DNA of 64,000 bases from the human T2T-CHM13v2.0 reference genome, Homo sapiens (GCF_009914755.1 NC_060940.1), one strand, 5' to 3'. Counted from the stretch's first letter, positions 22,601-47,244 are shown. Notes: a model not told the origin generated them from the letters alone. Made by a program: numbers and translations.

Positions 22601-25600
22601 TCAAAACTGCTCTCTCAAAAGAAAGGTTCAACTCTCTTAGTTGAGTACACACATCACAAACAAGTTTCTGAGAATGCTTCTGTCTAGTTTTCATGGGAAG
22701 AGATTTCCTTTTTCACCATGGGCCTCAGAGCCTTCGGAATGTCCACTTCCAGATACTAGAAAAAGACTGTTTCAAAACCTGCTCTGTAAAAGGGAATGCT
22801 CAACTCTGTGAGTTGAATGCAAACATCACTACGAAGTTTCCGAGAATGTTTCTGCTTTTCATATGGAGATAATCCCTTTTCCAACGAAATCCTCAGAGCA
22901 ATCCAAATATCCACTTACAGATCCTACAACAAGAGTGTTTCAAAACTACTCTATCAAAAGAAAGGTTCAACTCTGTTAGTTGTGTACACACATCAAAAAA
23001 CAAGTTTCGGAGAATGCTTCTGTCTACTTTTTGTGGAAGAGATAGCCTTTTTCACCATAGGCCTCAAAGCGCTCCAAATGTCCACTTCCAGATTCTACAA
23101 AAAGAGGGTTTCGTACCTCATCTGTGAAAGGGAATGTTCAACCCTGGGACTTGAATGCATACATCACAAAGAAGTTTCTGAAAATGCTCCTGTCTACTTT
23201 TTATATAAAGATATTGCCGTTTCCTCTGAAATCCTCAAAGCTATCCAAATATCCACTTGCAGATTCTACAAACAGAGTGTTCCCGATCTGCTCTATCAAA
23301 CGAAAGGTTCAACTCTGTTAGTTGAGTAGACACATGACAAACAAGTTTCTGAGAATGCTTCTGTCTAGTTTTTAAGGGAAGAGATTTCCAATTCCACCGT
23401 TGGCCTCAAAGCGCTCCAAATGTCCACATCCAGATACTACAAAAAGAGTGTTTCAAACCTGTTCTATGAATGGGAATGTTCAACTCTGAAACTTGAATGG
23501 AAACATCACAAAGTCGTTTCCCAGAAGGCTTCCGTCTCCTTTTTATCTGAAGATAATCCCGTTTCCAACGAAATCCTCGAAGCTATCCAAATATCCACTT
23601 GCAGATTTTACAAAAAGTGTGTTTGAAAGCTGCTCTATCAAAAGAAAGGTTCAACACTGTTAGTTGAGCACACACATCCCAAACAAGTTTCTGAGAATCC
23701 TTCTGTCTACATTTTATGGGAAGATATTTCCTTTTTCACCATAGGACTCAAAGCGCTCCAAATGTACACTTCCGGATACTATAAAAAGAATGTTTCAAAC
23801 CTGCTCTGTGAAAGGGAATGTTCAACACTGTGACTTGAATGCAAACCTCATAAAGAAGCTTCTGAGGATGCTTCTTCTTTTTATAGAGAGATATTCCCGT
23901 TTCCAAAGAAATCCTCAAAGCCATCCAATTATACACTTGCAGATTCCACAAAAAGCGTGTTTCAAAACAGGTCTACCATAAGGAAGGTTCACCTCTGTTA
24001 GTTTCGTACACACATCAGGAACAAGTTTCTGAGAGTGCTTCAGTCTAGTTTTTATGGGAAGAATTTTTGTTTTTCACCATAGGCCTCAATCGCTCCAAAG
24101 GTCCACTTCCAGATACTATAAAAAGAGGGTTTCCAACCTGCTATATGAAATGGAATATTGAACTCTGTGACCTGAATGCAAACATCACCAAGTAGTTTCT
24201 GAGAATACTTCTGTCTAGATTTTATATGAAGCTATTCCCGTTTCCAAGGAAATCCTCAAATCTATCCAAATATCCACTTGCAGATTCTTCTAAAAGAGAG
24301 ATTGAAAACTGCTCTATTAAAAGAAAGCTTCAACACTGTTAGTTGAGTACACACATGACAAACAAGTTTCTGAGAATGCTTCTGTCTAGTTTTTAGGGGA
24401 GAATGTTTCCTTTTTCACCGTAGGCCTCACAGCGCTCCAAATTTCCACTTCCATACACAGCAAAAGAGTGTTTCAAACCTGCTCCATGGAAGGGAATGTT
24501 CAACCCTGGGACTTCAATGCATACATCACAAAGAAGTTTCTGAAAATGCTTCTGTCTACTTTTCATATAAAGATATTCCCGTTTCCTCTGAAATCCTCAA
24601 AGCTATCCAAATATCCACTTGCAGATTCTACAAACAGAGTGTTCCCGATCTGCTCTATCAAACGAAAGGTTCAACTCTGTTAGTTGAGTAGACACATGAC
24701 AAACAAGTTTCTGAGAATGCTTCTGTCTAGTTTTTAAGGGAAGAGAATTCCAATTCCACCGTGAGCCTCAAAGCGCTCCAAATGTCCACATCCAGATACT
24801 ACAAAAAGAGTGTTTCAAACCTGTTCTATGAATGGGAATGTTCAACTCTGAAACTTGAATGGAAACATCACAAAGTCGTTTCCCAGAAGGCTTCCATCTC
24901 CTTTTTATCTGAAGATAATCCCGTTTCCAACGAAATCCTCGAAGCCATCCAAATATCCACTTGCAGATTTTACAAAAAGTGTGTTTAAAGCTGCTCTATC
25001 AAAAGAAAGGTTCAACACTGTTAGTTGAGTACACACATCCCAAACAAGTTTCTGAGAATCCTTCTGTCTACATTTTATGGGAAGATATTTCCTTCTTCAC
25101 CATAGGACTCAAAGCGCTCCAAATGTACACTTCCGGATACTATAAAAAGAATGTTTCAAACCTGCTCTGTGAAAGGGAATGTTCAACACTGTGACTTGAA
25201 TGCAAACCTTATAAAGAAGCTTCTGAGGATGCTTCTTCTTTTTATAGAGAGATATTCCCGTTTCCAAAGAAATCCTCAAAGCCATCCAATTATACACTTG
25301 CAGATTCCACAAAAAGCGTGTTTCAAAACAGGTCTACCATAAGGAAGGTTCACCTCTGTTAGTTTCGTACACACATCAGGAACAAGTTTCTGAGAGTGCT
25401 TCAGTCTAGTTTTTATGGGAAGAATTTTTGTTTTTCACCATAGGCCTCAATCGCTCCAAAGGTCCACTTCCAGATACTATAAAAAGAGGGTTTCCAACCT
25501 GCTCTATGAAATGGAATATTGAACTCTGTGACCTGAATGCAAACATCACCAAGTAGTTTCTGAGAATACTTCTGTCTAGATTTTATATGAAGCTATTCCC

Positions 25601-28600
25601 GTTTCCAAGGAAATCCTCAAAGCTATCCAAATATCCACTTGCAGATTCTTCTGAAAGAGAGATTGAAAACTGCTCTATTAAAAGAAAGCTTCAACACTGT
25701 TAGTGGAGTACACACATGACAAACAAGTTTCTGAGAATGCTTCTGTCTAGTTTTTATGGGAAGATGTTTCCTTTTTCGCCGTAGGCCTCACAGCGCTCCA
25801 AATGTCCACTTCCAGATACGGCAAAAAGAGTGTTTCAAACCTGCTCCATGGAAGGGAATGTTCAACCCTGGGACTTCAATGCATACATCGCAAAGAAGTT
25901 TCTGAAAATGCTTCTGTCTACTTTTTATATAATGATATCCCCGTTTCCTCCGAAATACTCAAAGCTATCCAAATATCCACTTGTAGATACTACAAAAAGG
26001 GTGTTTCAAAACTGCTCTCTCAAAAGAAAGGTTCAACTCTCTTAGTTGAGTACACACATCACAAACAAGTTTCTGAGAATGCTTCTGTCTAGTTTTCATG
26101 GGAAGAGATTTCCTTTTTCACCATGGGACTCAGAGCCTTCGGAATGTCCACTTCCAGATACTAGAAAAAGACTGTTTCAAAACCTGCTCTGTAAAAGGGA
26201 ATGCTCAACTCTGTGAGTTGAATGCAAACATCACTAGGAAGTTTCCGAGAATGCTTCTGCTTTTCATATGGAGATAATCCCTTTTCCAACGAAATCCTCA
26301 GAGCAATCCAAATATCCACTTACAGATCCTACAACAAGAGTGTTTCAAAACTACTCTATCAAAAGAAAGGTTCAACTCTGTTAATTGTGTACACACATCA
26401 AAAAACAAGTTTCGGAGAATGCTTCTGTCTACTTTTTGTGGAAGAGATAGCCTTTTTCACCGTAGGCCTCAAAGCGCTCCAAATGTCCACATCCAGATAC
26501 TACAAAAAGAGTGTTTCAAACCTGTTCTATGAATGGGAATGTTCAACTCTGAAACTTGAATGGAAACATCACAAAGTCGTTTCCCAGAAGGCTTCCGTCT
26601 CCTTTTCATCTGAAGATAATCCCGTTTCCAACGAAATCCTCAAAGCTATCCAAATATCCACTTGCAGATTTTACAAAAAGTGTGTTTGAAAGTTGCTCTA
26701 TCAAAAGAAAGGTTCAACACTGTTAGTTGAGTACACACATCCCAAACAAGTTTCTGAGAATCCTTTTGTCTACATTTTATGGGAAGATATTTCCTTCTTC
26801 ACCATAGGACTCAAAGCGCTCCAAATGTACACTTCCGGATACTAAAAAAAGAATGTTTCAAACCTGCTCTGTGAAAGGGAATGTTCAAATCTGTGACTTG
26901 AATGCCAACCTCATAAAGAAGTTTCTGAGCATGCTTCTTCTTTTTATAGAGAGATATTCCCGTTTCCAACGAAATCCTCCAAGCCATCCAAGTATCCACT
27001 TGCAGATTCCACAAAAAGCGTGTTTCAAAACTGCTCTATCAAAAGAAAGGTTCAACTCTGTTAGTTGAGTACACACATCAGGAACAAGTTTCTGAGAGTG
27101 CTTCAGTCTAGTTTTTATGGGAAGAATTTTTGTTTTTCACCACAGGCCTCAATCGCTCCAAAGGTCCACTTCCAGATACTATAAAAAGAGGGTTTCAAAC
27201 CTGCTCTATGAAATGGAATATTGAACTCTGTGACCTGAATGCAAACATCACCAAGTAGTTTCTGAGAATACTTCTGTCTAGATTTTATATGAAGCTATTC
27301 CCGTTTCCAAGGAAATCCTCAAAGCTATCCAAATATCCACTTGCAGATTCTTCTGAAAGAGAGATTGAAAACTGCTCTATTAAAAGAAAGCTTCAACACT
27401 GTTAGTGGAGTACACACATGACAAACAAGTTTCTGAGAATGCTTCTGTCTAGTTTTTATGGGAAGATGTTTCCTTTTTCGCCGTAGGCCTCACAGCGCTC
27501 CAAATGTCCACTTCCAGATACGGCAAAAAGAGTGTTTCAAACCTGCTCCATGGAAGGGAATGTTCAACCCTGGGACTTCAATGCATACATCGCAAAGAAG
27601 TTTCTGAAAATGCTTCTGTCTACTTTTTATATAATGATATCCCCGTTTCCTCCGAAATACTCAAAGCTATCCAAATATCCACTTGTAGATACTACAAAAA
27701 GGGTGTTTCAAAACTGCTCTCTCAAAAGAAAGGTTCAACTCTCTTAGTTGAGTACACACATCACAAACAAGTTTCTGAGAATGCTTCTGTCTAGTTTTCA
27801 TGGGAAGAGATTTCCTTTTTCACCATGGGACTCAGAGCCTTCGGAATGTCCACTTCCAGATACTAGAAAAAGTCTGTTTCAAAACCTGCTCTGTAAAAGG
27901 GAATGCTCAACTCTGTGAGTTGAATGCAAACATCACTACGAAGTTTCCGAGAATGTTTCTGCTTTTCATATGGAGATAATCCCTTTTCCAACGAAATCCT
28001 CAGAGCAATCCAAATATCCACTTACAGATCCTACAACAAGAGTGTTTCAAAACTACTCTATCAAAAGAAAGGTTCAACTCTGTTAGTTGTGTACACACAT
28101 CAAAAAACAAGTTTCGGAGAATGCTTCTGTCTACTTTTTGTGGAAGAGATAGCCTTTTTCACCGTAGGCCTCAAAGCGCTCCAAATGTCCACTTCCAGAT
28201 TCTACAAAAAGAGGGTTTCGTACCTCATCTGTGAAAGGGAATGTTCAACCCTGGGACTTGAATGCATACATCACAAAGAAGTTTCTGAAAATGCTCCTGT
28301 CTACTTTTTATATAAAGATATTGCCGTTTCCTCTGAAATCCTCAAAGCTATCCAAATATCCACTTGCAGATTCTACAAACAGAGTGTTCCCGATCTGCTC
28401 TATCAAACGAAAGGTTCAACTCTGTTAGTTGAGTAGACACATGACAAACAAGTTTCTGAGAATGCTTCTGTCTAGTTTTTAAGGGAAGAGATTTCCAATT
28501 CCACCGTTGGCCTCAAAGCGCTCCAAATGTCCACATCCAGATACTACAAAAAGAGTGTTTCAAACCTGTTCTATGAATGGGAATGTTCAACTCTGAAACT

Positions 28601-31600
28601 TGAATGGAAACATCACAAAGTCGTTTCCCAGAAGGCTTCCGTCTCCTTTTTATCTGAAGATAATCCCGTTTCCAACGAAATCCTCGAAGCCATCCAAATA
28701 TCCACTTGCAGATTTTACAAAAAGTGTGTTTGAAAGCTGCTCTATCAAAAGAAAGGTTCAACACCGTTAGTTGAGCACACACATCCCAAACAAGTTTCTG
28801 AGAATCCTTCTGTCTACATTTTATGGGAAGATATTTCCTTTTTCACCATAGGACTCAAAGCGCTCCAAATGTACACTTCCGGATACTATAAAAAGAATGT
28901 TTCAAACTTGCTCTGTGAAAGGGAATGTTCAAATCTGTGACTTGAATGCCAACCTCATAAAGAAGTTTCTGAGGATGCTTCTTCTTTTTATAGAGAGATA
29001 TTCCCGTTTCCAACGAAATCCTCCAAGCCATCCAAGTATCCACTTGCAGATTCCACAAAAAGCGTGTTTCAAAACTGCTCTATCAAAAGAAAGGTTCAAC
29101 TCTGTTAGTTGAGTACACACATCAGGAACAAGTTTCTGAGAGTGCTTCAGTCTAGTTTTTATGGGAAGAATTTTTGTTTTTCACCACTGGCCTCAATCGC
29201 TCCAAAGGTCCACTTCCAGATACTATAAAAAGAGGGTTTCCAACCTGCTCTATGAAATGGAATATTGAACTCTGTGACCTGAATGCAAACATCACCAAGT
29301 AGTTTCTGAGAATACTTCTGTCTAGATTTTATATGAAGCTATTCCCGTTTCCAAGGAAATCCTCAAAGCTATCCAAATATCCACTTGCAGATTCTTCTGA
29401 AAGAGAGATTGAAAACTGCTCTATTAAAAGAAAGCTTCAACACTGTTAGTGGAGTACACACATGACAAACAAGTTTCTGAGAATGCTTCTGTCTAGTTTT
29501 TATGGGAAGATGTTTCCTTTTTCGCCGTAGGCCTCACAGCGCTCCAAATGTCCACTTCCAGATACGGCAAAAAGAGTGTTTCAAACCTGCTCCATGGAAG
29601 GGAATGTTCAACCCTGGGACTTCAATGCATACATCGCAAAGAAGTTTCTGAAAATGCTTCTGTCTACTTTTTATATAATGATATCCCCGTTTCCTCCGAA
29701 ATACTCAAAGCTATCCAAATATCCACTTGTAGATACTACAAAAAGGGTGTTTCAAAACTGCTCTCTCAAAAGAAAGGTTCAACTCTCTTAGTTGAGTACA
29801 CACATCACAAACAAGTTTCTGAGAATGCTTCTGTCTAGTTTTCATGGGAAGAGATTTCCTTTTTCACCATGGGACTCAGAGCCTTCGGAATGTCCACTTC
29901 CAGATACTAGAAAAAGACTGTTTCAAAACCCGCTCTGTAAAAGGGAATGCTCAACTCTGTGAGTTGAATGCAAACATCACTAGGAAGTTTCCGAGAATGC
30001 TTCTGCTTTTCATATGGAGATAATCCCTTTTCCAACGAAATCCTCAGAGCAATCCAAATATCCACTTACAGATCCTACAACAAGAGTGTTTCAAAACTAC
30101 TCTATCAAAAGAAAGGTTCAACTCTGTTAGTTGTGTACACACATCAAAAAACAAGTTTCGGAGAATGCTTCTGTCTACTTTTTGTGGAAGAGATAGCCTT
30201 TTTCACCGTAGGCCTCAAAGCGCTCCAAATGTCCACATCCAGATACTACAAAAAGAGTGTTTCAAACCTGTTCTATGAATGGGAATGTTCAACTCTGAAA
30301 CTTGAATGGAAACATCACAAAGTCGTTTCCCAGAAGGCTTCCGTCTCCTTTTTATCTGAAGATAATCCCGTTTCCAACGAAATCCTCGAAGCTATCCAAA
30401 TATCCACTTGCAGATTTTACAAAAAGTGTGTTTGAAAGCTGCTCTATCAAAAGAAAGGTTCAACACTGTTAGTTGAGCACACACATCCCAAACAAGTTTC
30501 TGAGAATCCTTCTGTCTACATTTTATGGGAAGATATTTCCTTTTTCACCATAGGACTCAAAGCGCTCCAAATGTACACTTCCGGATACTAAAAAAAGAAT
30601 GTTTCAAACCTGCTCTGTGAAAGGGAATGTTCAAATCTGTGACTTGAATGCCAACCTCATAAAGAAGTTTCTGAGGATGCTTCTTCTTTTTATAGAGAGA
30701 TATTCCCGTTTCCAACGAAATCCTCCAAGCCATCCAAGTATCCACTTGCAGATTCCACAAAAAGCGTGTTTCAAAACTGCTCTATCAAAAGAAAGGTTCA
30801 ACTCTGTTAGTTGAGTACACATATCAGGAACAAGTTTCTGAGAGTGCTTCAGTCTAGTTTTTATGGGAAGAATTTTTGTTTTTCACCACAGGCCTCAATC
30901 GCTCCAAAGGTCCACTTCCAGATACTATAAAAAGAGGGTTTCCAACCTGCTCTATGAAATGGAATATTGAACTCTGTGACCTGAATGCAAACATCACCAA
31001 GTAGTTTCTGAGAATACTTCTGTCTAGATTTTATATGAAGCTATTCCCGTTTCCAAGGAAATCCTCAAAGCTATCCAAATATCCACTTGCAGATTCTTCT
31101 GAAAGAGAGATTGAAAACTGCTCTATTAAAAGAAAGCTTCAACACTGTTAGTGGAGTACACACATGACAAACAAGTTTCTGAGAATGCTTCTGTCTAGTT
31201 TTTATGGGAAGATGTTTCCTTTTTCGCCGTAGGCCTCACAGCGCTCCAAATGTCCACTTCCAGATACGGCAAAAAGAGTGTTTCAAACCTGCTCCATGGA
31301 AGGGAATGTTCAACCCTGGGACTTGAATGCATACATCGCAAAGAAGTTTCTGAAAATGCTTCTGTCTACTTTTTATATAATGATATCCCCGTTTCCTCCG
31401 AAATACTCAAAGCTATCCAAATATCCACTTGTAGATACTACAAAAAGGGTGTTTCAAAACTGCTCTCTCAAAAGAAAGGTTCAACTCTCTTAGTTGAGTA
31501 CACACATCACAAACAAGTTTCTGAGAATGCTTCTGTCTAGTTTTCATGGGAAGAGATTTCCTTTTTCACCATGGGCCTCAGAGCGTTCGGAATGTCCACT

Positions 31601-31965
31601 TTCAGATACTAGAAAAAGACTGTTTCAAAACCTGCTCTGTAAAAGGGAATGCTCCACTCTGTGACTTGAATGCAAACATCACTATGAAGTTTCCGAGAAT
31701 GCTTCTTCTTTTCATATGGAGATATTCCCGTTTCCAAAGAAATCCTCAAAGCCATCCAAGTGTCCACTTGCAGATTCCACAAAAAGCGTGTTTCAAAACT
31801 GGTCTACCAAAAGGAAGGTTCACCTCTGTTAGTTGAGTACACACATCAGGAACAAGTTTCTGAGAGTGCTTCAGTCTAGTTTTTATGGGAAGAATTTTTG
31901 TTTTTCACCCTAGGCCTCAATCGCTCCAAAGGTCCACTTCCAGATACTATAAAAAGAGTGTTTCA
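16662..31965 (-). repeat. Alpha satellite, SF2-type, inverted block (~15.3 kb)
   Basis: Same monomer family read as reverse complement ('tcccgtttccaacgaaa', 'gtttctgagaatgcttctgtctag') from 16662 up to the L1 5' end. Confidence 0.93.
21100..31600 (-). repeat. Homogeneous SF2 HOR patch with 12-mer (2044 bp), 8-mer (1361 bp) and 10-mer (1702 bp) variants
   Basis: Landmark ORFs at 21704, 23748, 25109, 26811, 28855 and 30557 (spacings 2044, 1361, 1702, 2044, 1702). Identical 96-aa translations at 22397, 25802, 27504 and 29548. Boundaries are approximate. Confidence 0.88.
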
Positions 31966-32869
31966 GAGGAGGAGCCAAGATGGCCGAATAGGAACAGCCC
32001 CGGTCTACTGCTCCCAGCGTGAGCGAAGCTGAAGACGGGTGATTTCTGCATTTCCATCTGAGGTACCGGGTTCATCTCACTAGGGAGTGCTAGACAGTGG
32101 GCGCAGGCCAGTGTGTGTGCGCACCGTGCGTGAGCCGAAGCAGGGCGAGGTATTGCCTCACCTGGGAAGCGCAAGGGGTCAGGGAGTTCCCTTTCCGAGT
32201 CAAAGAAAAGGGTGACGGACGCACCTGGAAAATCGGGTCACTCCCACCCGATTATTGCGCTTTTCAGACCGGCTTAAGAAACGGCGCACCACGAGACTAT
32301 ATCCCACACCTGGCTCAGAGGGTCCTACGCCCACGGAATCTCGCTGATTGCTAGCACAGCAGTCTGAGATCAAACAGCAAGGCGGCAACGAGGCTGGGGG
32401 ATGGGCGCCCGCCATTGCCCAGGCTTGCTTAGGTAAACAAAGCAGCCGGGAAGCTCGAACTGGGTGGAGCCCACCACAGCTCAAGGAGGCCTGCCTGCCT
32501 CTGTAGGCTCCACCTCTGGGGGCAGGGCACAGACAAACAAAAAGACAGCAGTAACCTCTGCAGACTTAAGTGTCCCTGTCTGACAGCTTTGAAGAGAGCA
32601 GTGGTTCTCCCAGCACGCAGCTGGAGATCTGAGAACCGGCAGACTGCCTCCTCAAGTGGGTCCCTGACCCCTGACCCCCGAGCAGCCTAACTGGGAGACA
32701 CCCCCCAGCAGGGGCACACTGACACCTCACACGGCAGGGTATTCCAACAGACCTGCAGCTGAGGGTCCTGTCTGTTAAAGGAAAACTAACAACCAGAAAG
32801 GACATCTACACTGAAAACCCATCTGTACATCACCATCATCAAAGACCAAAAGTAGATAAAACCACAAAG
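31966..32869 (+). promoter_or_regulatory. L1 5'UTR: CpG-rich internal sense promoter with YY1 site, plus antisense promoter region
   Basis: YY1 motif CAAGATGGCCG at ~31976-31986; ~900-bp GC/CpG-rich UTR matching the L1HS layout. Activity cannot be determined from sequence. Confidence 0.85.
32200..32415 (-). CDS. ORF0: L1 ORF0 (71 aa), open reading frame intact
   Basis: MAGAHPPASLPPCCLISDCCASNQRDSVGVGPSEPG...RHPFL lies inside the 32200-32484 ORF; ATG (cat) at 32413-32415; 216 nt including stop. Confidence 0.85.
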   Translation of the reverse strand: MAGAHPPASLPPCCLISDCCASNQRDSVGVGPSEPGVGYSLVVRRFLSRSEKRNNRVGVTRFSRCVRHPFL

Positions 32870-33886
32870 ATGGGGAAAAAACAGAACAGAAAAACTGGAA
32901 ACTCTAAAACGCAGAGCGCCTCTCCTCCTCCAAAGGAACGCAGTTCCTCACCAGCAACAGAACAAAGCTGGATGGAGAATGATTTTGACGAGCTGAAAGA
33001 AGAAGGCTTCAGACGATCAAATTACTCTGAGCTACGGGAGGACATTCAAACCAAAGGCAAAGAAGTTGAAAACTTTGAAAAAAATTTAGAAGAATGTATA
33101 ACTAGAATAACTAATACAGAGAAGTGCTTAAAGGAGCTGATGGAGCTGAAAACCAAGGCTCAAGAACTACGTGAAGAATGCAGAAGCCTCAGGAGCCGAT
33201 GCGATCAACTGGAAGAAAGGGTATCAGCAATGGAAGATGAAATGAATGAAATGAAGCGAGAAGGGAAGTTTAGAGAAAAAAGAATAAAAAGAAATGAGCA
33301 AAGCCTCCAAGAAATATGGGACTATGTGAAAAGACCAAATCTACGTCTGATTGGTGTATCTGAAAGTGATGTGGAGAATGGAACCAAGTTGGAAAACACT
33401 CTGCAGGATATTATCAAGGAGAACTTCCCCAATCTAGCAAGGCAGGCCAACGTTCAGATTCAGGAAATACAGAGAACGCCACAAAGATACTCCTCGAGAA
33501 GAGTAACTCCAAGACACATAATTGTCAGATTCACCAAAGTTGAAATGAAGGAAAAAATGTTAAGGGCAGCCAGAGAGAAAGGTCGGGTTACCCTCAAAGG
33601 AAAGCCCATCAGACTAACAGTGGATCTCTCGGCAGAAACCCTACAAGCCAGAAGAGAGTGGGGGCCAATATTCAACATTCTTAAAGAAAAGAATTTTCAA
33701 CCCAGAATTTCATATCCAGCCAAACTAAGCTTCATAAGTGAAGGAGAAATAAAATACTTTATAGACAAGCAAATGCTGAGAGATTTTGTCACCACCAGGC
33801 CTGCCCTAAAAGAGCTCCTGAAGGAAGCGCTAAACATGGAAAGGAACAACCGGTAGCAGCCGCTGCAAAATCATGCCAAAATGTAA
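32870..33886 (+). pseudogene. ORF1: L1 ORF1p with premature stop (Y329*; 328 of 338 aa)
   Basis: MGKKQNRKTGNSK...REKG...ARREW...YPAKLS. TAG at 33854-33856 replaces TAC; the rest (QPLQNHAKM*) stays in frame to TAA at 33884-33886. Confidence 0.93.
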
Positions 33887-33925
33887 AGACCATCGAGACT
33901 AGGAAGAAACTGCATCAACTAATGA

Positions 33926-37777
<3,852 letters not shown>

Positions 37778-37820
37778 ACAATGAGATCACATGGACACAG
37801 GAAGGGGAATATCACACTCT

Positions 37821-37854
37821 GGGGACTGTGGTGGGGTCGGGGGAGGGGGGAGGG
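37821..37854 (+). other. L1 3'UTR G-rich tract (potential G-quadruplex)
   Basis: ggggactgtggtggggtcgggggaggggggaggg has at least 4 G-runs; this is a known feature of young L1 3'UTRs. Confidence 0.75.
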
Positions 37855-37979
37855 ATTGCGTTGGGAGATATACCTAATGCTAGATGACACATTAGTGGGT
37901 GCAGCGCACCAGCATGACACATGTATACATATGTAACTAACCTGCACAATGTGCACATGTACCCTAAAACTTAGAGTAT

Positions 37980-38015
37980 AATAAAAAAAAAAAATTTAAA
38001 AAAAAAAAAAAAAAA
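37980..38015 (+). terminator. L1 polyadenylation signal and poly(A) tail
   Basis: AATAAA at 37980-37985, then an A tract interrupted by TTT at 37995-37997. The last ~5 A's may belong to the alpha target (aaaaactagac). Confidence 0.9.
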
Positions 38016-41000
38016 CTAGACTGAAGCATTCTCAGAAACTTGTTCCTGATGTGTGTACTCAACTAACAGAGTTGCACCTTTCTTTTGATAGAACAGTTTT
38101 GAAACACTCTTGTTATAGAATCTGCAAGTGGATATTTGGATTGCTTTGAGGATTTCGTTGGAAATGGGATTATCTCCATATGAAAAGAAGAAGCATTCTC
38201 AGAAACTTCTTTGTGATGTTTGCATTCAAGTCACAGCGTGGAACATTCCCTTTCACAGAGCAGGTTTCAAACATTCCTTTTATAGTATCTGGAAGTGGAC
38301 ATTTGGAGCGTTTTGAGGCCTATGGTGAAAAAGGAAATATCTTCCCATAAAATGTAGACAGAAGGATTCTCAGAAACTTGTTTGGGATGTGTGTACTCCA
38401 CTAAAAGTATTGAACCTTTCTTTTGATAGAGCAGCTTTCAAACACTCTTTTTGTAAAATCTACAAGTGGATATTTGGATAGCTTTGAGGATTTCTTTGGA
38501 AACGGGATTATCTTCATGTAAAAAGTAGACAGAAGCCTTCTGGGAAACTTCTTTATGATGATTGCATTCAAGTCACAGAGTTGAACATTCCCTTTCATAG
38601 AGCAGGTTTGAAACACTCTTTTTGTAGGATCTGCAAGTGGATATTTGGATGGATTTGAGGATTTCGGAGGAAACGGAAATATCTTCCTATAAAAAGTAGA
38701 CAGAAGCATTTTCAGAAACTTCTTTGTGATGAATGCATTCAAGTCCATGAGTTGAATATTCCCTTCCATAGAGCAAGTTTGAAACACTCTTTTTGTTGTA
38801 TCTGGAAGTGGATATTTGGAGCGCTATGAGACCTATGGAGAAAAAGGAAACATCTTCCCATAAAAACTAGACAGAAGCATTCTCAGAAATTTGTTTGTCA
38901 TGTGTCTACTCAACTAACAGAGTTGAACCATTCTTTTGATAGAGCAGATCAGAAACACTCTGTTTGTAGATTCTGCAATTGGATATTTGGGTAGCTTTGA
39001 GGATTTCGTTGGAAATGGGAATATCATCATATAAAATCTAGACAGATGCATTCTCAGAAACTCCTTTATGATGATTGCATTCAAGTCACAGAGTTGAACA
39101 TTCCCTTTCATAGAGCAGGTTTGAAACACACTTTTTGTAGAATCTGGAAATGGACATTTGGATCGCTTTGAGGCCTATGATGAAAAAGAATGTCTCTTCC
39201 CTTAACAACTAGACAGAAGCATTCTCAAAAACTTGTTTTTGATATGTGTACTCAACTAAGAGAGTTGAACCTTTTTTTTGATAGAGCAGTTTTAAAGCAC
39301 TCTTGTTATAGAATCTGCAAGTGGATTTTTGGATTGCTTTGAGGATTACGTTGGAAAAGGGATTATCTCCATATGAAAAGTAGAAGCATTTTCAAAAAAT
39401 TCTTTGTGATATATGCATTCAAGTCCCAGAGATGAACATTCCCTTTCATAGAGCAGGTTTGAAAAACTCTTTTTGTAGAATCTGGAAGTGGACATTTGGA
39501 GCGCTTTGAGGCCTATGGTGAAAAAGAAAATCTCTTCCCTTAACAACTAGACAAAAGAATTCTCAGAAACTTTTTTTTGATATGTGTAGTCAACTAACAG
39601 AGTTGAACCTTTCTTTTGATAGAGCAGTTTTGAAACACTCTTGTTATAGAATCTGGAAGTGTATATTTGGATTGCTTTGAGGATATCGTTGAAAAGTGAT
39701 TTTTTCCATATTAAAAGTAGAAGCATTCTCAGAAACTTCTTTGTGATATATGCATTCAAGTCCCAGACGTGAACATTCCCTTTCATAGAGCAGGTTTGAA
39801 ACACTCTTTTTATAGTATCTGGAAGTGGACATTTGTAGCACTTCGAGGCCTATGGTTTTAAATAAAATTTCTTCCCATAAAAACTAGACTGAAGCATTCT
39901 CAGAAACTTCTTTCTGACTTGTGTACTCAACTAACAGATTAGAACTTGTCTTTTGTTAGAGCATTTTTGAAAGACTCCTGTTATAGAATCTGCCAGTGTA
40001 TATATTTGGATTGCTTTGAGTATTTCGTTGGAAAGGGATTATCTCCATATGAGAAGTAGAAGCATTCTCAGAAACTTCTTTGTGATATATGCATTCAAGT
40101 CCCAGAGTTGAACCTTCCCTTTCATAGAGCAGGTTTGAAACACTCTTTATAGTATCTGGAAGTGGACATTTGGAGTGCTTTGAGGCCTATGGTGAAAAAT
40201 AAAATTTCTTCCCATAAAAACTAGACTGAAGCATTCTCAGAAACTTGTTGCTGATGTGTGTACTCCACTAACAGAGTTGAACCTTTCTTTTGATAGAGCA
40301 GTTTTGAAACACCCGTTTTGTGGAATCTGCAAGTGGATATTTGGATTGCTTTGAGGATTTCGATGGAAACGGGAATATCTCTATATAAAAAGCAGAAGCA
40401 TCCTCAGAAATTTCTTTGTGATGTTTGGATTCAAGTCACAGAGTTTAACATTCCCTTTCATAGAGCAGGTTTGAAACACTACTTTATAGTATCTGGAAGT
40501 GGTCATTTGGAGCGTTTTGAGGCCTATGGTGAAAAAGGAAATATCTTCCCATAAAATCTAGACAGAAGGATTCTCAGAAACTTGTTTTGGATGTTTTTAC
40601 TCAACTAATAGTGTTGAACCTTTCTTTTGATAGAGCAGCTTTCAAACACACTTTTTGTAAAATCTACAAGAGGATATTTGGATAGATTTGAGGAATTCGT
40701 TGGAAATGGGATTATCTTCATATAAATGTAGATGGAAGCCTTCTCAGAAAAGTCATTGTGATGTTTGCGTTCAACTCCGAGAGTTGAACATTCCCTTTCA
40801 TAGACCAGGTTTTAAACACTCTTTTTGTAGTATCTGGAAGTGGACATTTGGAGCGCTTTGAGGCCTATGGTGGAATAGGAAAACTCTTCCCATAAAAACT
40901 AGACAGAAGCATTCTCAGAAACTTGTTTGTCATGTGTCCACTCAACTAACAGAGTTGAACCTTTCTTTTGATAGAGCAGATCGGAAACACTCTGTTGGTT

Positions 41001-44000
41001 GAATCTTCATGTGGATATTTGGATAGCTTTGAAGATTTCGTTGGAAACGGGAATATCATCATATAAAATCTAGACAGATGCATTCTCAGAAACTTCTTTA
41101 TGATGATTGCATTCAAGTCACAGAGTTGAACATTCCCTTTCATAGAGCAGGTATGAAACACTCTTTTTGTAGGATCTGGAAGTGGACATTTGGAGCGCTT
41201 GAGGCCTATGGTGAAAAATAAAAATTCTTCCCATAAAAAGTAGACAGAAGCATTCTCCGAAACTTGTTTTTTGATGTGTGTACACAACTAACAGAGTTGA
41301 ACCTTTCTTTTGGTAGAGCAGTTTTGAAACACTCTTGTTATAGAATCTGCAAGTGGATATTTGGATTGCTTTGAGGATTTCGTTGGAAAAGGGATTATGT
41401 CCATATGAGAAGAAGAAGCATTCTCAGAAACTTCTTTGTGATATATGCATTCAAGTCCCAGAGTTGAACATTCCCTTTCATAGAACAGGTTTGAAACACT
41501 CTTTATAGTATCTGGAAGTGGACATTTGGAGCGCTTTGAGGCCTATGGTGAAAAATAAAATTTCTTCCCATAAAAACTAGACTGAAGCATTCTCAGAAAC
41601 TTGTTTCTGATGTGTGTACTCCACTAACAGAATTCAACCTTTCTTTTGATAGAGCATTATTGAAACACTCTTTTTGTAGGATCTGCAAGTGGATATTTGG
41701 ATAGCTTTGAGGATTTCGGAGGAAACGGGAATATCTTCATATAAAAATAGACAGAAGCATTTTAAGAAACTTCTTTGTGATGAATGCATTCATGTCCATG
41801 AGTTGAATATTCCCTTTCATAGAGCAGGTTTGAAACACTCTTTTTGTTGTATCTGGAAGTGGACATTTGGAGTGCTATGAGGCCTATGGTGAAAAGGGAA
41901 ATATCTTCCCATAAAATCTAGACAGAAGGATTCTCAGAAACTTGTTTTGGATATTTTTACTCAACTAACAGTGTTGAACATTTCTTTTGATAGTGCAGCT
42001 TTCAAACACTCTTTTTGTAAAATCTGCAAGTGGATATTTGGATAGCTTTGAGGATTTCGTTTTAAACGGGAATATCATCATATAAAATCTAGAGAGAAGC
42101 ATTCTCAGAAACTTCTTTGTGAAGTGTGCATTCAAGTCACAGAGTTTAACATTCCCTTTCGTAGAGCAGGTTAGAAACTCTCTTTTTGTAGTATCTGGAA
42201 GTGGACATTTTCAGCGCTTTTAGACCTATGGTGAAAATGGAATTGTCTTCCCATAAAAACTAGACTGAAGCATTCTCAGAAACTTGTTTGTGATGTGTGT
42301 ACTGAACTAACACAGTTGAAGCTTTCTTTTGATAGAGCAGTCCTGAAACACACTTTTTGTAGAATCTGAACGTGGATATTTGGAAAGATTTGAGGATTTC
42401 GTTGGAAACGGGAATATCTTCATTTAAATCTGGATATATTTATTCTCAGAAACTTCTTTGTGATGTTTGTATTCAAGTCACAGATTTGAACATTCCCTTT
42501 TACAGAGCAGGCTTGAAACACTCTTTTTGTAGTATGTGGAAGTGGACATTTTTAGCACTTTGAGGCCTATGGTGTAAAAGGTCATCTCTTCCCATAAAAA
42601 CTGGACTGAAGCATTCTCAGAAACTTGTTTCTTATGTGTGTACTCAACTAACAGAGTTGAACCTTTCTTTTGATAGAGCAGTTTTGAAACACGCTTTTTG
42701 TAGAATCTTCAGGTGGATATTTGGATTACTTTGAGGATTTCGTTGGAAACGGGAATATCTCCATATAAAAAGAAGAAGCATTCTCGGAAAGTTCTATGTT
42801 ATGTTTGTATTCAAGTAACAGAGTTGAGAATTCCCTTTCACAGAGCAAGTTGGAAACAGTCTTTTTGTAGTATCTGGAAGTGGACATTTGGAACTCTTTG
42901 AGGCCTATGATGAAAAAGGAAATATCTTCCAATTAAAACTAGACAGAAACATTCCCAGAAACTTGTTTGTGATGTGTGTACTCAAGTAACAGAGTTGAAC
43001 CTTACTTTTGATAGAGCAGAGCTGAAACACTCTGTCTGTTGAATCTGAAAGTGGATATTTGGATAGCTTTGAGGATTTCGTTGGAAACAGGATCATATAA
43101 AATCTAGACAGAAGCATTCTCAGAAACTTTTTATGATGATTGCATTCAAGTGACAGAGTTGAAATTTCCCTTTAATATAGCAGGTTTGAAAAACTCTTTT
43201 TGTAGTATCTGGAAGAGGACATTTGGAGCGCTTTGACGACTAAGGTGAAAAAGGAAAGCTCTTCCCCTAAAAACTAGACAGAAGCCTTCTCAGAACCTTC
43301 TTTGTGATGTGTGTACTCAACTAACAGAGTTGATCCTTTCTTTTGATCGAGCAGTTCTGAAACACTCTTTTTGTAGAATCTGAACGTGTATATTTTGATA
43401 GCTTTGATGATTTCGTTGGAAACGGGAATATCTTCATAAAAAATCTAGACAGAAATATTCTCATAAACTTCTTTGTGATGTTTTTATTCAAGTTACAGAG
43501 TTTAACATTCCCTTTCATAGAGCAGGTTTGAATCTCTCTTTTTGTAGTATCTGGAAGTTGACATTTTTAGCGCTTTTTGGTCTATGGTGAAAAAGGAAAT
43601 CAATTCCCATAAAAACTAGACTGAAGCATTCTCAGAAACTTGTTTCTGATGTGTGTACTCAACTAACAGAGTTGAACCTTTGTTTTGATAGAGCAGTTTT
43701 GAAACACTCTTGTTGTGGAATCTTCAAGTGGATATTTGGATTGCTTTGAGCATTTCGTTGGAAATGGAAATATATCCATATATAAAGAAGAAGCAGTCTC
43801 AGAAACTTCTTTGTGATGTTTGCATTCATGTAACAGAGTTGAACATTCCCTTTCACAGAGCCGGTTTGAAACAGTCTTTTTGTAGTATCTGGAAGAGAAC
43901 ATTTGGAGTGCATTGAGGCCTATGGTGAAAAAGGAAAAATCTTCCCCTAAAAACTACATAGAAGCTTTCTCAGAAACTTGTTTGTGATGTGTGTACTGAA

Positions 44001-47000
44001 GTAACAGTTTTGAAACTTTCGATTAATAGGGCAGTTTTCAATCTCTCTTTTTGTAGAATCTGCAATTGGATATTTGGATAGCTTTGAGGATTTCATTGGA
44101 AATGGGAATACCTTCGTATAAAATTTATACAGAAGGATTCTCAGAATCTACTTTGTGATGTTTGCATTCAAGTCACAGAGTTTAACATTCCCTTTCATAG
44201 AGCAGGTTTGAAACACTATTTTGTAGTATCTGGAAGTGGACATTTGGGCGTTTTGAAGCCTTTTTTTCAATAGGAAATATCTTCCCCTAAAAACTAGACT
44301 GAAGAATTCTGAGAAACTTGTTTGTTATGTATGTGCTGAAATAACAGACTTGGACCTTTGTTTTGATAGGGCAGTTCTGAAACACTCTTTTTGTTGAATC
44401 TGAACGTGGATATTTTGATAGGTTGGAGGATTTCGTTGGAAATGGGAAAATGTTCATATAAAATCTAGACAGAATTATTCTCAGAAACATCTGTGTGATG
44501 TTTGTATTCAAGTCACAGAGTTGAGCCTTCCCTTTCACAGAGCAGGTTTGAAACAGTCTTTCTGTGGTATCTGGATGAGGATATTTGGAGCGTTTTGAGG
44601 CCTATGGTGAACAAGGAAATCTCTTCCCATAAAAACTACACAGAAGCATTCTCAGAAACTCCTTTGTGATGTGTCTACTCAACTAACAGAGTTGAATCTT
44701 TCTTTTGATAGAGTAGTTTTGAAACACTCTTTTTGTAGAATCTGCAACTGGATATTTGGATAGCTCTGAGGATTTCGGTGGAAACGGAATATCTTCATAA
44801 AAAAAGTAGACAGAAGCATTTTCAGAAATTTATTTGTGATGTTTGCATTCAAGTCCCAGAGTTGAATATTCCCTTTCATAGAGCAGGTTTGAAAAACTCT
44901 TTTTGTGGTATCTGGAACTGGACATTTGGAGCGCTTTGAAGCCTATGGTGAAAAAGGAAAATCTTCCCATAAAAACCAGAAAGAAGCATTCTCAGAAGCT
45001 AGTTTGTGACGTGTGTACTGAACTAACAGTGTTGACGCTTTCTTTTAATAGAGCAGTTTTCAAACTCTCTTTCTGTTGAATCTGCAAGTGTATATTTGGA
45101 TAGCTTTGAGGATTTCGTTGGAAACTGGAATATCTTCATATAAAAAGTAGAAAGCAGCCTTCTCAGAAACTTCTTTGTGATGTTTACATTCATGTAAGGG
45201 AGTCGAACATTCCCTATCATAGAGGAGGTTTGAAACACTCTTTTTGTAGAATCTGGGAGTGGACTTTGGGATCACTTTGAAGCCTAGGGTGAAAAAGGAA
45301 ATCTCTTCCCATGAATACTAGAGAGAAGCATTCTCAGAAAGTTGTTTGTTATGTGTGCATTCTACTAACAGAGTTGAACCATTCTTTTGATACAGAAGTT
45401 CTGAAACGCTCTTTTGTAGAATCTGCAAGTGGATATTTGGATAGCTTAGAGACTTTCGTTGGAAAACAGAATATCTTTATATAAAATCTAGACAGAAGCA
45501 TTCTCAGAAAGTTCTTTGTGTTGTTTGCATTCCAGTCGCAGAGTTGAACATTCCCTTTCATAGAGCAGGTTTGAAACACTCTTTTTGTAGTATCTGGAAT
45601 TGGACATTTGGAGCTCTTTTACGTGTAAGGTGGAAAAGGAAATCTGTTTTCATGAAAACTAGACAGAAGCATTCTCAGAAACTTGTTTGTGATGTGTGTA
45701 CTCAACTAACAGAGTTTATCCTTTCTTTTGATAGAGCAGTTTTGAAACACTCGTGTTGTAGAATCTGCAAGTGGATATTTGGATAGCTGTGAGGAATTCA
45801 TTGGAAACGGGAATATCTTCATATAAAAAGTATAAGCATTCTCAGAAACTACTTTTTGATGTTTGCATTCAAGTCACAGAGTTGAACATTGCCTTTCACA
45901 GAGCAGATTTGAAACAGTCTTTTGTACTTTCTGGAGGTGGACATTTGGAGCGCTTTGGGGCCTATGGTGAAAAAGGGAATCTCTTCCATTAAAAACTAGA
46001 CAGAAGCATTCTCAGAAACTTGTTTGTGATGTGTGCACTCAACTAACACTGTTGAACCTTTCTTTTGATAGAGCAGTTCTGAAACTCTGTTTTTGTGGAA
46101 TCTGCACGTGGATATTTGGATAGCTTTGAGGATTTCGTTGGAAACGGGAATATTTACATATAGAAAGTGGAAGCATTCTCAGAAATTTCTTATTGTTGTT
46201 TGCATTCAAGTCACAGTTGAACATTCCCTTTCATAGAGCAGGTTTGAAACACTCTTTTTGTAGTATCTGGATGTGGACATTTGGAGCGCTTTGAGGCCAG
46301 TGGTGAAAAAGGGAATCTCTTCCCGTAAAAAGTACACAGAAGCATTCTCAGAAACGTGTTTGTGATGTGTGTACTCAACCAACGGAGTTGAAGCTTTCTT
46401 TTGATAGAGCAGTTCTGAAACACTCTTTTTGTAGAATCTGCACATGGGTGTTTTTGATGGCTTTGAGGATTTCATTGGAAACGGGAATATCTTCATATGA
46501 AACCTAGATAGAAACATTCCCAGTAATTTCATTAAGATGATATCATTCAAGTCAGACAGTTGAACCTTTCCTTTCACAGAGAAGGTTTGAAAAACTCTTT
46601 GTAGTATCTGGAAGTGTAAATTTAAAGCGCTTTGAGGCCTAGGATGAAAAAGGAAATATCTTCCCATAAAAACCTGACCGAAGCATTCCTAGAAACTTGT
46701 TTGTGATGTGTGTACTCAACTAACAGTGTTGAACGTTTCTTTTGATTGAGCAGTTTTGAAACACTCTTTTTGTGTAATCGGCAAGTGGATATTTGGATAG
46801 CTTTTAGGATTACATTGGTAACGGGAATATGTTCATATAAAACTGGACAGAAGCATTCTGAGATACATATTTGTGATGTTTGCATTCAAGTCACAGTGTT
46901 GAACACTCTTTTTCATAGAGCAGGTTTCAAATTCTCTTTTTTTGTTATCTGGAAGTGGACATTTGGAGTGCTTTGAGGCCTGTGTTGAAAAAGGAAATAT

Positions 47001-47244
47001 CTTCCCATAAAAACTAGACAGAAGCATTCTCAGAAACTTGTTTGTGAAGTGTGTACTCAACTAACGGAGTTGAACCTTCCTTTTGGTGGAGTAGTTTTGA
47101 ATCTCTCTTTTTGCAGAATCTGCAATTGGATAGTTGGATAGCTTTGAGGAATTCTTTGGAACGGGAATATCGTCATATAAAATGTAGACAGAAGCATTCT
47201 CAGGAACTTCTTTGTGATGTTTGCATTCAAGTCACAGAGTTGAA
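38011..47244 (+). repeat. Diverged SF2-like dimeric alpha satellite without a clean HOR, forward orientation
   Basis: Same A-box/B-box alternation and monomer signatures as 9.5-16.6 kb up to ~42 kb, then progressively more substitutions and small indels. Many B boxes are mutated. Confidence 0.88.

What the first reader, a model, noticed from the sequence alone, without database searches (positions are those of the whole stretch)
31880..38100. Full-length L1HS with no TSD sits exactly on an alpha-satellite strand switch
Seen: alpha is minus-oriented up to 31965 and plus-oriented from ~38011. The 5' flank (tactat|aaaaagagtgtttca, 31951-31965) does not match the 3' flank (aaaaactagactgaag). The 5' flank reads TTTTT/AT on the bottom strand, and homologous monomers (cccat|aaaaactagac) imply the same motif at the 3' target. 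Established: L1 endonuclease nicks TTTT/A-type sites, and normal TPRT leaves a ~7-20 bp TSD with collinear flanks. Inference: the element either bridged a rearrangement during insertion (L1-mediated deletion or inversion), or it is a recombinant of two L1HS copies, with the 15-mer before the 5' end an orphan TSD. Either way a human-specific element would date this restructuring of the centromere margin.
Basis: partly seen in the sequence, partly recalled or inferred. Interest (0 to 1): 0.8.

Follow-up and report, generated by a model that had tools for sequence, protein, structure and literature searches.

The report
L1 element bridging a centromeric inversion
A full-length but dead human-specific L1 sits at one edge of a 15-kb flipped block of chromosome 16 alpha satellite, and its junctions suggest that the L1 insertion itself caused the flip, a mechanism so far documented mainly in cancer cells and cell models.

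Summary
A 6,050-bp L1 (31966-38015) has minus alpha satellite on its 5' side, plus alpha on its 3' side, and no target-site duplication.

New context:
- The minus alpha is one 15.3-kb block (16670-31965) in alpha that is plus for at least 120 kb to the left.
- The block's other edge (16661/16670) has no L1. It carries an 8-10-bp templated insertion.
- The L1 looks Ta-0-like, by recalled markers. It has three premature stops and about 0.85% private divergence. It shows no 5'/3' lineage switch.
- Both L1 flanks bear the endonuclease motif AT|AAAAA. On the 5' side the motif lies exactly 15 nt from the junction, which is true of 1.5-3% of positions in the block.
- Un-inverting the block brings its far end to within 24 bp of the L1 target site in repeat phase (chance about 14%).

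Best reading (about 0.6): an L1 retrotransposition-mediated inversion. The cDNA-bearing end at the target was joined to the overhang end of a second, probably ORF2p-made, break. The two leftover ends were joined by alt-EJ.

Rejected or weak: inverted-L1 recombination, since no partner exists in CHM13; two-L1 deletion; and insertion at an older inversion.

This is a new member of a known kind. Population and ape haplotypes are needed to settle it.

The parts
1..9544 (+). Plus-oriented alpha satellite, HOR type 1 (dimeric, about 1.7-kb period). Not part of the rearrangement.
   Evidence: dimers here match each other at 90-99% with 1700-bp shifts and do not resemble block B. Overlapping HMM hits at 9506-9544 mark the change of HOR type.
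9506..16661 (+). Plus-oriented alpha 'A2', the same HOR family as the inverted block. It ends at the proximal inversion breakpoint ('...cacgttttgtaa').
   Evidence: the last hit ends at dimer-HMM position 90. A2 dimers match B' dimers at 92-100%.
16662..16671 (.). Junction filler 'cctcaaagcg': an 8-bp templated insertion plus 2-bp 'cg' overlap. It is a direct copy of 16676-16685.
   Evidence: 12 of 13 homologous monomers in the block read '...cacc(g/a)t(a/t)GGCCTCAAAGCG' (one '...caccatgGGCCTCAGAGCG'). Here homology stops at 'cgta', and the preceding 8 bases repeat the adjacent sequence. No L1 sequence is present.
16670..31965 (-). Inverted (minus) alpha block, 15,296 bp. It has a young core of 99.7-100% identical 5-6-dimer units and older dimers at both edges.
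   Evidence: 46 minus dimer hits. The reverse complement starts at HMM position 241 (at the L1) and ends at HMM 298 (at 16670).
31951..31965 (+). 15-nt stretch 'aaaaagagtgtttca' between an L1-endonuclease motif (tat|aaaaa, bottom strand TTTTT/AT) and the L1 5' end. Read as the preserved overhang of a second ORF2p cut.
   Evidence: T|AAAA at 7-20 nt occurs at 456 of 15,265 block positions (3.0%), and at 12-18 nt at 227 (1.5%). For T|AAAAA the figures are 1.3% and 0.66%. The homologous site was used by an L1 on chr2.
31966..38015 (+). Full-length L1 (Ta-0-like L1HS), 6,050 bp including the poly(A) A12-TTT-A18 (37983-38015). Collinear with other L1HS copies, with no internal inversion.
   Evidence: 98% identity to 39 other full-length copies, 51 private substitutions plus 1 indel column over about 6 kb, and ACA combined with G/C at the Ta-1 sites.
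32870..33856 (+). L1 ORF1, truncated to 328 codons by a premature stop.
   Evidence: stop at codon 329 of the 339-codon frame. Three of four comparators have 338 aa.
33950..37777 (+). L1 ORF2 frame. It is kept in frame but broken by two premature stops.
   Evidence: stops at codons 498 and 851, and the normal end at codon 1276.
38011..47240 (+). Plus-oriented older divergent dimeric alpha 'C'. Its first bases (aaaaa)ctagactgaag are the L1 target site (cccat|aaaaa in homologous dimers).
   Evidence: C starts at HMM about 323 (328 without the A's). C dimers are 84-93% identical to one another and to B.
47241..64000 (+). (GGAAT)n-type satellite (HSat2/3-like) abutting the alpha domain. Context only.
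   Evidence: the sequence changes at 47240, with about 75% self-identity at many shifts.
14115..15604 (+). Left arm of a near-perfect inverted repeat across the proximal breakpoint.
   Evidence: 1,490 bp at 99.4% to the reverse complement of 18201-19690. One mismatch in 14164-15573, and a perfect run of 1,254 bp.
18201..19690 (-). Right arm of the same inverted repeat, inside the inverted block.

Best explanation
An L1 retrotransposition-mediated inversion.

Proposed sequence of events:
1. The region was originally all plus-oriented alpha, in the order A2 - B' - C.
2. ORF2p nicked the bottom strand at cccat|aaaaactag at the B'/C boundary.
3. It reverse-transcribed a complete Ta-0 L1 RNA from that nick. 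This is shown by the poly(A) abutting the motif and by the full-length 5' end.
4. The nicked site became a double-strand break.
5. A second break lay about 15 kb upstream (by present-day length). It was probably also ORF2p-made, with staggered nicks 15 nt apart at ...tttca^ / tat|aaaaa.
6. The freed B' fragment flipped.
7. The 3'-overhang ('reciprocal') end of the upstream break captured the end of the full-length cDNA. This gave the TSD-less L1 5' junction at 31965/31966.
8. The two leftover ends were resected. These were the A-side end and the B' end next to the L1 target, which lost about 24 bp.
9. They were joined by microhomology/templated-insertion end joining at 16661-16671.
10. Later, the inverted HOR block kept homogenising, and a 1.4-kb patch was converted between the now-inverted arms.

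Shown: the layout, the junction sequences, the motifs, the phases, the L1 state and the absence of a partner.
Inferred: that the two junctions arose simultaneously, and that ORF2p made the second break.
For: 1. Only one minus block exists in 184 kb, and it is bounded by the L1 on one side and an L1-free junction on the other.
2. The L1 5' end is complete to within 1 nt, and minus alpha runs in phase up to the last base. So the junction was made at the cDNA end, not by a later random break.
3. The 3' junction has poly(A) on an AT|AAAAA site.
4. The 5' flank ends exactly 15 nt after an identical AT|AAAAA motif. That holds for 3.0% (7-20 nt) or 1.5% (12-18 nt) of block positions. Passages of PMC11702581 describe 12-18-bp TSDs for full-length inserts, and breakpoints 'proximal to an EN cut motif within the range of TSDs' as the signature of reciprocal ends.
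5. After un-inverting, the B' end (HMM 298) and the target nick (HMM 322/323) lie in the same monomer, 24 bp apart. The chance of a gap of 24 bp or less is 49/338, or 14.5%.
6. The L1-free junction has an 8-bp templated insertion with 2-bp microhomology, as expected for alt-EJ of resected ends.
7. The geometry is consistent: a plus L1 with its poly(A) towards C.
8. Both junctions are unique in CHM13. One of 66 matches and one of 40 matches span them.
9. The general mechanism is experimentally established: L1 cDNA ends ligate to distal breaks, and inversions are among the outcomes (PMC13526784 passages; PMC11702581 passages).
Against: - The A end (HMM 90, b-type dimer) and the B' start (HMM 241, e-type tail) are not contiguous. 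At least 150 bp must have been lost there, and about 1.2 kb if the canonical HOR order held.
- The C-side tail reads GACTGAAG, whereas the closest relatives of the last B' dimer read GACAGAAG. This is one base, so it is weak evidence.
- The two supporting coincidences (1.5-3% and 14.5%) were evaluated after seeing the data.
- Simultaneity cannot be shown from one haplotype.
- The evidence for two ORF2p cuts exchanging ends comes from over-expression and cancer systems, not the germline.
- The block contains 100% identical repeats and a 99.9% inverted-repeat patch, both far younger than the L1. The region has therefore been remodelled since, and edges could have been rewritten.
Confidence: 0.6

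Rival explanations
1. Older inversion plus one later L1 insertion with a target-site deletion. The minus block already existed. The L1 primed at the site in C, and its 5' end was joined upstream inside the minus block, deleting the old junction.
For: L1 insertion-mediated deletions are a known outcome (recalled: Gilbert 2002, Han 2005; also mentioned in PMC11702581 passages). Strand switches are common in divergent alpha (Altemose preprint passages). The inverted block has evolved a lot since.
Against: It needs the insertion to land within the deletion span of the only nearby switch. It does not explain the EN motif exactly 15 nt from the 5' junction (1.5-3%). It does not explain the 24-bp phase match with the other breakpoint (14.5%).
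Confidence: 0.08
2. Two direct-oriented L1HS insertions, one in the minus block with the TSD aaaaagagtgtttca and one in plus alpha C, recombined. The recombination deleted everything between them, including an older inversion junction, and left a chimeric L1 with orphan flanks.
For: Both flanks look like normal TPRT target sites. L1 recombination-associated deletions are known (recalled: Han 2008).
Against: - It requires four events, including two full-length Ta-0 insertions within a few tens of kb.
- There is no 5'/3' switch. At the 8 sites that separate the ACA pair from the ACG pair, this L1 sides 4:4 in interleaved order.
- Private substitutions are even along the element: 13, 9, 8, 5, 10, 6 per kb.
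- The 24-bp phase match would be chance.
- The test has low power, because only 4 comparators cover the 3' 3.6 kb.
Confidence: 0.07
3. Inversion by homologous recombination between two inverted L1s (retrotransposon recombination-mediated inversion).
For: This is a known class. PMC2603318 appeared in a search listing only.
Against: The other breakpoint (16661-16671) holds no L1 sequence. Nowhere in CHM13 is there an L1 preceded by the predicted TSD: 0 hits. Nor is there an L1 on chr16 followed by the 15-mer: 15 hits, 0 on chr16, and the 6 with L1 tails are all on chr2.
Confidence: 0.01
4. A normal L1 insertion in the minus block, followed by a later deletion from its poly(A) to an A-run in C (A-tract microhomology). 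The deletion removed the 3' TSD and an older junction.
For: It would explain the intact 5' TSD-like 15-mer. The 3' flank starts with A5.
Against: It needs an older inversion close by and a precisely placed deletion. The phase match with the other breakpoint would be chance (14.5%). I know of no precedent.
Confidence: 0.03
5. Assembly misjoin through a 6-kb L1 shared by two loci.
For: This could not be checked with reads here.
Against: This L1 is single-copy. Only the self match reaches 100%, and the 39 other scored matches are at 98%. It carries 51 private substitutions spread over its whole length. No other L1 lies in the 184 kb examined, and the complementary half-junctions do not exist in the assembly.
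Confidence: 0.03

Closest known systems
L1 retrotransposition-mediated rearrangements: exchange between ORF2p-made 'primary RT ends' and 'reciprocal ends' (PMC11702581, passages read; PMC13526784, passages read)
   Same: One junction has a polyadenylated L1 on an EN motif and no TSD. The partner breakpoint lies an EN-motif-plus-15-nt away, in the TSD range. The complementary junction has no retrotransposed sequence but shows end-processing marks.
   Different: - Those cases are somatic or induced (cell lines, tumours) and are mostly translocations, deletions or fold-backs.
- This one is a germline, assembled-reference, balanced 15-kb inversion inside a centromeric inactive HOR array.
- It carries a full-length rather than truncated L1.
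- Simultaneity is inferred, not observed.
Inversions and L1Hs insertions catalogued in T2T-CHM13 centromeres (Altemose et al. preprint 10.1101/2021.07.12.452052, passages read)
   Same: [quoted passage not shown] This locus is very probably among the entries of their Tables S6, S7 and S15.
   Different: In the passages I read, the two features are listed separately and no causal link or junction analysis is given. The supplementary tables were not readable here, so I cannot confirm the locus is listed.
Retrotransposon recombination-mediated inversion (PMC2603318, search listing only) and L1 recombination-associated deletion (recalled, Han 2008)
   Same: An L1 at a rearrangement breakpoint, with flanks that do not match.
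   Different: Those need a second L1. None is at the other breakpoint or elsewhere in the genome with matching flanks.
Twin priming (Ostertag and Kazazian 2001, recalled; discussed in PMC11702581 passages)
   Same: An inversion linked to L1 integration and use of the second target-site end.
   Different: Twin priming inverts the 5' part of the L1 itself and keeps the TSD. Here the L1 is collinear over 6 kb with one indel column, the flank is what is inverted, and there is no TSD.

Membership tests
L1HS (Ta-0) full-length element | About 6-kb element starting at the canonical 5'UTR start and ending in poly(A) | tested here: met
   6,050 bp. The start GAGGAGGAGCC compares with (G)GAGGAGGAGCC or GGGGGAGGAGCC in 29 comparators. 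Poly(A) is A12-TTT-A18.
L1HS (Ta-0) full-length element | Sequence identity to young L1 copies, plus subfamily-diagnostic bases (ACA and G in the 3'UTR; ancestral bases at the two Ta-1 sites). The definitions are recalled from Boissinot 2000, not taken from a call. | tested here: met
   98% identity to 39 full-length copies. It has ACA like L011 and L013, but G and C at element positions 5530 and 5533 like the ACG copies L010 and L014.
L1HS (Ta-0) full-length element | Intact ORF1 and ORF2 (needed for competence, not for membership) | tested here: not met
   Stops at ORF1 codon 329 and ORF2 codons 498 and 851.
Canonical TPRT insertion | 7-20-bp target-site duplication and collinear flanks | tested here: not met
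   The flanks share no sequence and lie on opposite alpha strands.
Canonical TPRT insertion | Poly(A) abutting an ORF2p endonuclease motif (bottom strand TTTT/A) | tested here: met
   The poly(A) is followed by ctagactgaag. Homologous dimers read CCCAT|AAAAACTAGAC. The pre-insertion sequence itself is inferred.
L1 retrotransposition-mediated rearrangement (RT end joined to a distal end) | The L1-bearing junction joins non-adjacent or non-collinear DNA without a TSD | tested here: met
L1 retrotransposition-mediated rearrangement (RT end joined to a distal end) | The distal breakpoint lies within TSD range of an EN motif (reciprocal-end signature) | tested here: met
   tat|aaaaa lies 15 nt from the junction. 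Background is 1.5-3.0%.
L1 retrotransposition-mediated rearrangement (RT end joined to a distal end) | A complementary junction joins the two remaining ends, and restoring it gives continuity at the target site | tested here: inconclusive
   The junction exists at 16661-16671 with a templated insertion. The gap at the target side is 24 bp, but at least 150 bp at the other side, and HOR order is not restored.
L1 retrotransposition-mediated rearrangement (RT end joined to a distal end) | Both junctions arose in one event | not testable with these tools
   This needs other human and ape haplotypes. Only CHM13 was searchable.
Recombination between two L1s (inversion or deletion) | A second L1 at the other breakpoint, or partner junctions elsewhere | tested here: not met
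   There is no L1 at 16661-16671. The predicted 5' partner gave 0 hits, and the predicted 3' partner gave 0 of 15 hits on chr16.
Recombination between two L1s (inversion or deletion) | Chimeric element with a 5'/3' lineage switch | tested here: inconclusive
   No switch was seen. However, only 4 comparators cover the whole length, and two Ta-0 parents would look alike.
Twin-primed L1 | Inverted 5' segment inside the L1, with the TSD kept | tested here: not met
   The element is collinear with 4 full-length copies, with one indel column, and has no TSD.

The most novel reading that the evidence does not exclude
This locus is a fixed germline example showing that ORF2p cuts, and not just L1 insertions, directly create alpha-satellite strand switches. 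If so, a measurable share of the many inversion breakpoints in divergent and inactive centromeric arrays would carry the same cryptic signature: an EN motif 12-18 nt from the break, with or without an L1. L1 activity would then be a driver that cuts segments off from homogenisation. Each such L1 would also give a subfamily-based date for a centromere-edge rearrangement.
Probability: 0.15. Interest if true: 0.7.

Novelty: new member of a known kind. Interest (0 to 1): 0.45.

Why it matters
Strand switches in pericentromeric alpha satellite are counted but rarely explained. Here both breakpoints of one inversion can be read at base resolution. They match a mechanism only recently demonstrated in L1-overexpressing cells and tumours.

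If population and ape data confirm that the inversion and the L1 always travel together, three things follow:
- It would be a natural germline instance of an L1-mediated balanced inversion.
- It would date this remodelling of the chr16 q-side centromere margin to the human lineage, after Ta-0 arose.
- It would justify a genome-wide search for endonuclease-motif signatures at satellite inversion breakpoints.

If they do not travel together, this is an ordinary old inversion that an L1 happened to hit.

Tried and rejected
- **Inverted duplication or fold-back centred on the L1.** The two L1 flanks are both 'e-type tail plus next dimer', but they are only 89% identical. That is far too diverged for arms made at the L1 event.
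- **Fold-back at 16661.** The near-perfect inverted repeat is a 1.4-kb patch with a 2.6-kb spacer. Its neighbours drop to about 93%, so it is a later conversion patch, not the arms of the event.
- **HOR-phase continuity across the un-inverted A/B' join.** The A end is a b-type head, but the B' start is an e-type tail. This gives no support.
- **Partner-L1 searches.** They found nothing on chr16. The chr2 hits are an unrelated amplified L1.
- **5' transduction or template switch onto alpha RNA as the source of the minus alpha.** Rejected. The block is 15.3 kb, it belongs to the local HOR family, and its far edge has no TSD.
- **Fetching 20 full-length comparators.** The chimera test is therefore weak.
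- **Altemose paper by a recalled PMC id.** Not held. The preprint's supplements, which may list this L1 and inversion, could not be read.
- **Literature searches.** Passages read gave no statement linking the chr16 inversion to an L1.
- **Technical failures.** The first MAFFT run timed out, and a first alignment mixed strands. Both were redone. In one search one comparator (L038) misaligned, showing 946 'private' columns, and is left out of the yardstick.

Full report
**What is there**

The window is chr16:37,820,001-37,884,000 of T2T-CHM13 (hub note; confirmed). It lies at the q-side edge of the chr16 alpha-satellite domain.

A monomer taken from the window, and then a 338-position dimer HMM built from it, give this layout:
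- Plus alpha, 1-16661.
- Minus alpha, 16670-31965.
- A plus-oriented L1, 31966-38015.
- Plus alpha, 38016-47240.
- A (GGAAT)n-type satellite to the end of the window.

I fetched 120 kb to the left of the window. It is uninterrupted plus alpha: 404 plus dimer hits from chr16:37,700,011 to 37,836,665. So the minus alpha is a single 15.3-kb inverted block, and the L1 sits at its distal edge.

**The L1**

- It is 6,050 bp long and begins GAGGAGGAGCC. That is within one base of the start seen in 29 other full-length copies.
- It ends in A12-TTT-A18.
- Its first 935 nt match 39 other full-length L1s at 98%. Only the self match reaches 100%. The tool scored 40 of 4,590 candidates.
- In the first 2.4 kb it has 25 private substitutions and 1 indel, against 3-19 private columns in 28 comparators. 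L038 misaligned and was dropped.
- Over the whole length it has 51 private substitutions plus one indel column, against 13-27 substitutions in four comparators. Only 6 of the 51 are CpG transitions. They are spread 13, 9, 8, 5, 10, 6 per kb.
- It carries ACA in the 3'UTR, like two comparators, but the bases of the ACG comparators at element positions 5530 and 5533. At the 8 sites separating the two comparator pairs it sides 4:4 in interleaved order. By my recollection of Boissinot 2000 this pattern is the older Ta-0 subset. It is not a sign of a chimera.
- It is dead. There is a stop at ORF1 codon 329 and stops at ORF2 codons 498 and 851, with no frameshift.
- Hoyt et al. (preprint passages) report that L1Hs in monomeric alpha are more diverged than elsewhere. 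This fits the roughly 0.85% private divergence.

**The satellite context**

Dimer-by-dimer comparison shows several compartments:
- 1-9544 is one HOR type with a 1.7-kb period.
- 9506-16661 ('A2') and the inverted block ('B' when reverse-complemented) belong to one other HOR family, with recurring dimer types I labelled a-e.
- B' has a young core. Four dimers at 22335-22676, 25740-26081, 27442-27783 and 29486-29827 are 100% identical in match columns. Older dimers lie at both of its edges.
- C (38016-47240) is older, at 84-93%.
- A 1,490-bp inverted repeat (14115-15604 against 18201-19690) straddles the proximal breakpoint. It is 99.4% identical, with one mismatch in 1,410 bp and a perfect run of 1,254 bp. 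That is much younger than the L1, so sequence has been exchanged between the arms after the inversion.

**The proximal breakpoint**

- Plus alpha stops at '...cacgttttgtaa' (16661, HMM position 90).
- Minus alpha homology starts at 'cgtaGGCCTCAAAGCG' (16670, HMM 298 in reverse complement).
- Between them lies 'cctcaaag', which together with 'cg' is a direct copy of 16676-16685.
- There is no L1 sequence here.
- This is the look of resected ends joined by microhomology-mediated repair with a templated insertion.

**The distal breakpoint and the two tests**

The 3' L1 junction is poly(A) on a site that reads CCCAT|AAAAACTAGAC in homologous dimers. That is TTTTT/AT on the bottom strand. The 5' flank is 'ctat|aaaaagagtgtttca' followed by the L1.

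Test 1, the motif next to the 5' junction:
- An identical AT|AAAAA motif lies exactly 15 nt before the junction.
- In the minus block, a T|AAAA motif lies 7-20 nt upstream of 456 of 15,265 positions (3.0%), and 12-18 nt upstream of 227 (1.5%). With T|AAAAA the figures are 1.3% and 0.66%.
- The same alpha position was used as a real L1 target on chr2.

Test 2, repeat phase after un-inverting:
- If the block is turned back, its far end (HMM 298) and the L1 target nick (HMM 322/323) fall in the same monomer, 24 bp apart.
- A gap of 24 bp or less has a chance of 49/338, or 14.5%.

Evidence that does not fit as neatly:
- The other restored join does not close cleanly. The A end is at HMM 90 in a b-type dimer, and the B' start is at HMM 241 in an e-type tail. 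At least 150 bp, perhaps about 1.2 kb, would have been lost there.
- One base in the 11-bp C-side tail (T, where relatives of the last B' dimer have A) does not match expectation. This is weak evidence.

**Mechanism**

Passages of PMC11702581 say that ORF2p makes staggered double-strand breaks with 3' overhangs. They also report the following:
- Full-length inserts have discrete 12-18-bp TSDs.
- 'Primary RT ends' and 'reciprocal ends' from two ORF2p breaks can be exchanged.
- Reciprocal-end junctions carry no insert but lie near an EN motif within TSD range.
- RT extensions can be lost by flap cleavage.

PMC13526784 shows experimentally that L1 cDNA intermediates ligate to distal breaks.

The chr16 structure maps onto this model one-to-one:
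- The RT end at the C-side target carries a full-length cDNA.
- That RT end is joined to the reciprocal end of a second cut, with its 15-nt overhang preserved.
- The remaining two ends are joined after resection.
- Because both breaks are on one chromatid, the result is an inversion.

I put 0.6 on this L1-bridged inversion. Within that, I favour an ORF2p-made second break over a spontaneous one because of the motif.

**Rivals**

- **Recombination between inverted L1s** is excluded for this genome. No L1 is at the other breakpoint. The predicted 5' partner junction gave 0 hits. The predicted 3' partner gave 15 hits, none on chr16. Six of the eight loci fetched have L1 tails and all six are on chr2. 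The other two are Alu-like tails.
- **A two-L1 deletion** would explain both EN-type flanks. It needs four events and leaves the phase match to chance. No lineage switch is seen, though the test is weak.
- **Insertion with deletion at an older inversion** explains neither coincidence.
- **A misjoin** is unlikely. The L1 is single-copy with private changes throughout. Both junctions are unique: one of 66 matches and one of 40 matches span them. The complementary halves do not exist in the assembly.

**Known or new**

[quoted passage not shown] This locus is probably in their tables, which I could not read.
- Shepelev 2009 (passages) used L1 ages to date alpha layers.
- Three full-text searches and the passages read turned up no statement tying the chr16 inversion to an L1, and no germline L1-bridged inversion in a centromere.
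- I file it as a new member of a known kind.
- The claim stands or falls on other haplotypes and apes, which no tool here could reach.

Noticed in passing
L002-L007 (G000:C2:94,008,885-94,309,454, six places): On chr2 near the centromere there are six copies of one structure: an L1 3' end (98.6% identical to this L1 over 485 nt), a short 3'-transduced tail, a poly(A) of varying length, and then minus alpha starting AAAGAGTGTTTCAAACC. They form two clusters of three, spaced 12.3 and 6.2 kb apart. So one L1 inserted at the homologous alpha endonuclease site was later amplified together with its satellite flank.
   Followed up: partly
window 14115-15604 and 18201-19690: A near-perfect inverted repeat lies across the L1-free breakpoint. 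It is 1,490 bp at 99.4%, with a perfect run of 1,254 bp and a spacer of about 2.6 kb. It is much younger than the L1, which suggests recent gene conversion between the inverted arms.
   Followed up: partly
window 22335-22676, 25740-26081, 27442-27783, 29486-29827: Four 340-bp dimers of the inverted block are 100% identical in HMM match columns. The block's core is built of 5-6-dimer units at 99.7-100% identity. This small 'inactive' HOR array has therefore been amplified or homogenised very recently, after it was inverted.
   Followed up: no
window 9506-9544: There is an abrupt change from one HOR type (1.7-kb period, 1-9544) to another (the A2/B family), with overlapping dimer-HMM hits. This is a junction between two array types with no strand change.
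   Followed up: no
window 47240/47241: There is a direct alpha to (GGAAT)n satellite junction in mid-monomer ('...gtcacagagttgaatgga|ctcgaatagaatc'), with no transposon or spacer.
   Followed up: no
G000:C16:35,830,933-35,847,330 and 39,396,522-39,518,588: Alpha dimers at 81-95% identity to the breakpoint flanks occur on the p-side of the chr16 array and as islands about 1.5 Mb into the q-side satellite. They may be mirror or older layers of the same family.
   Followed up: no
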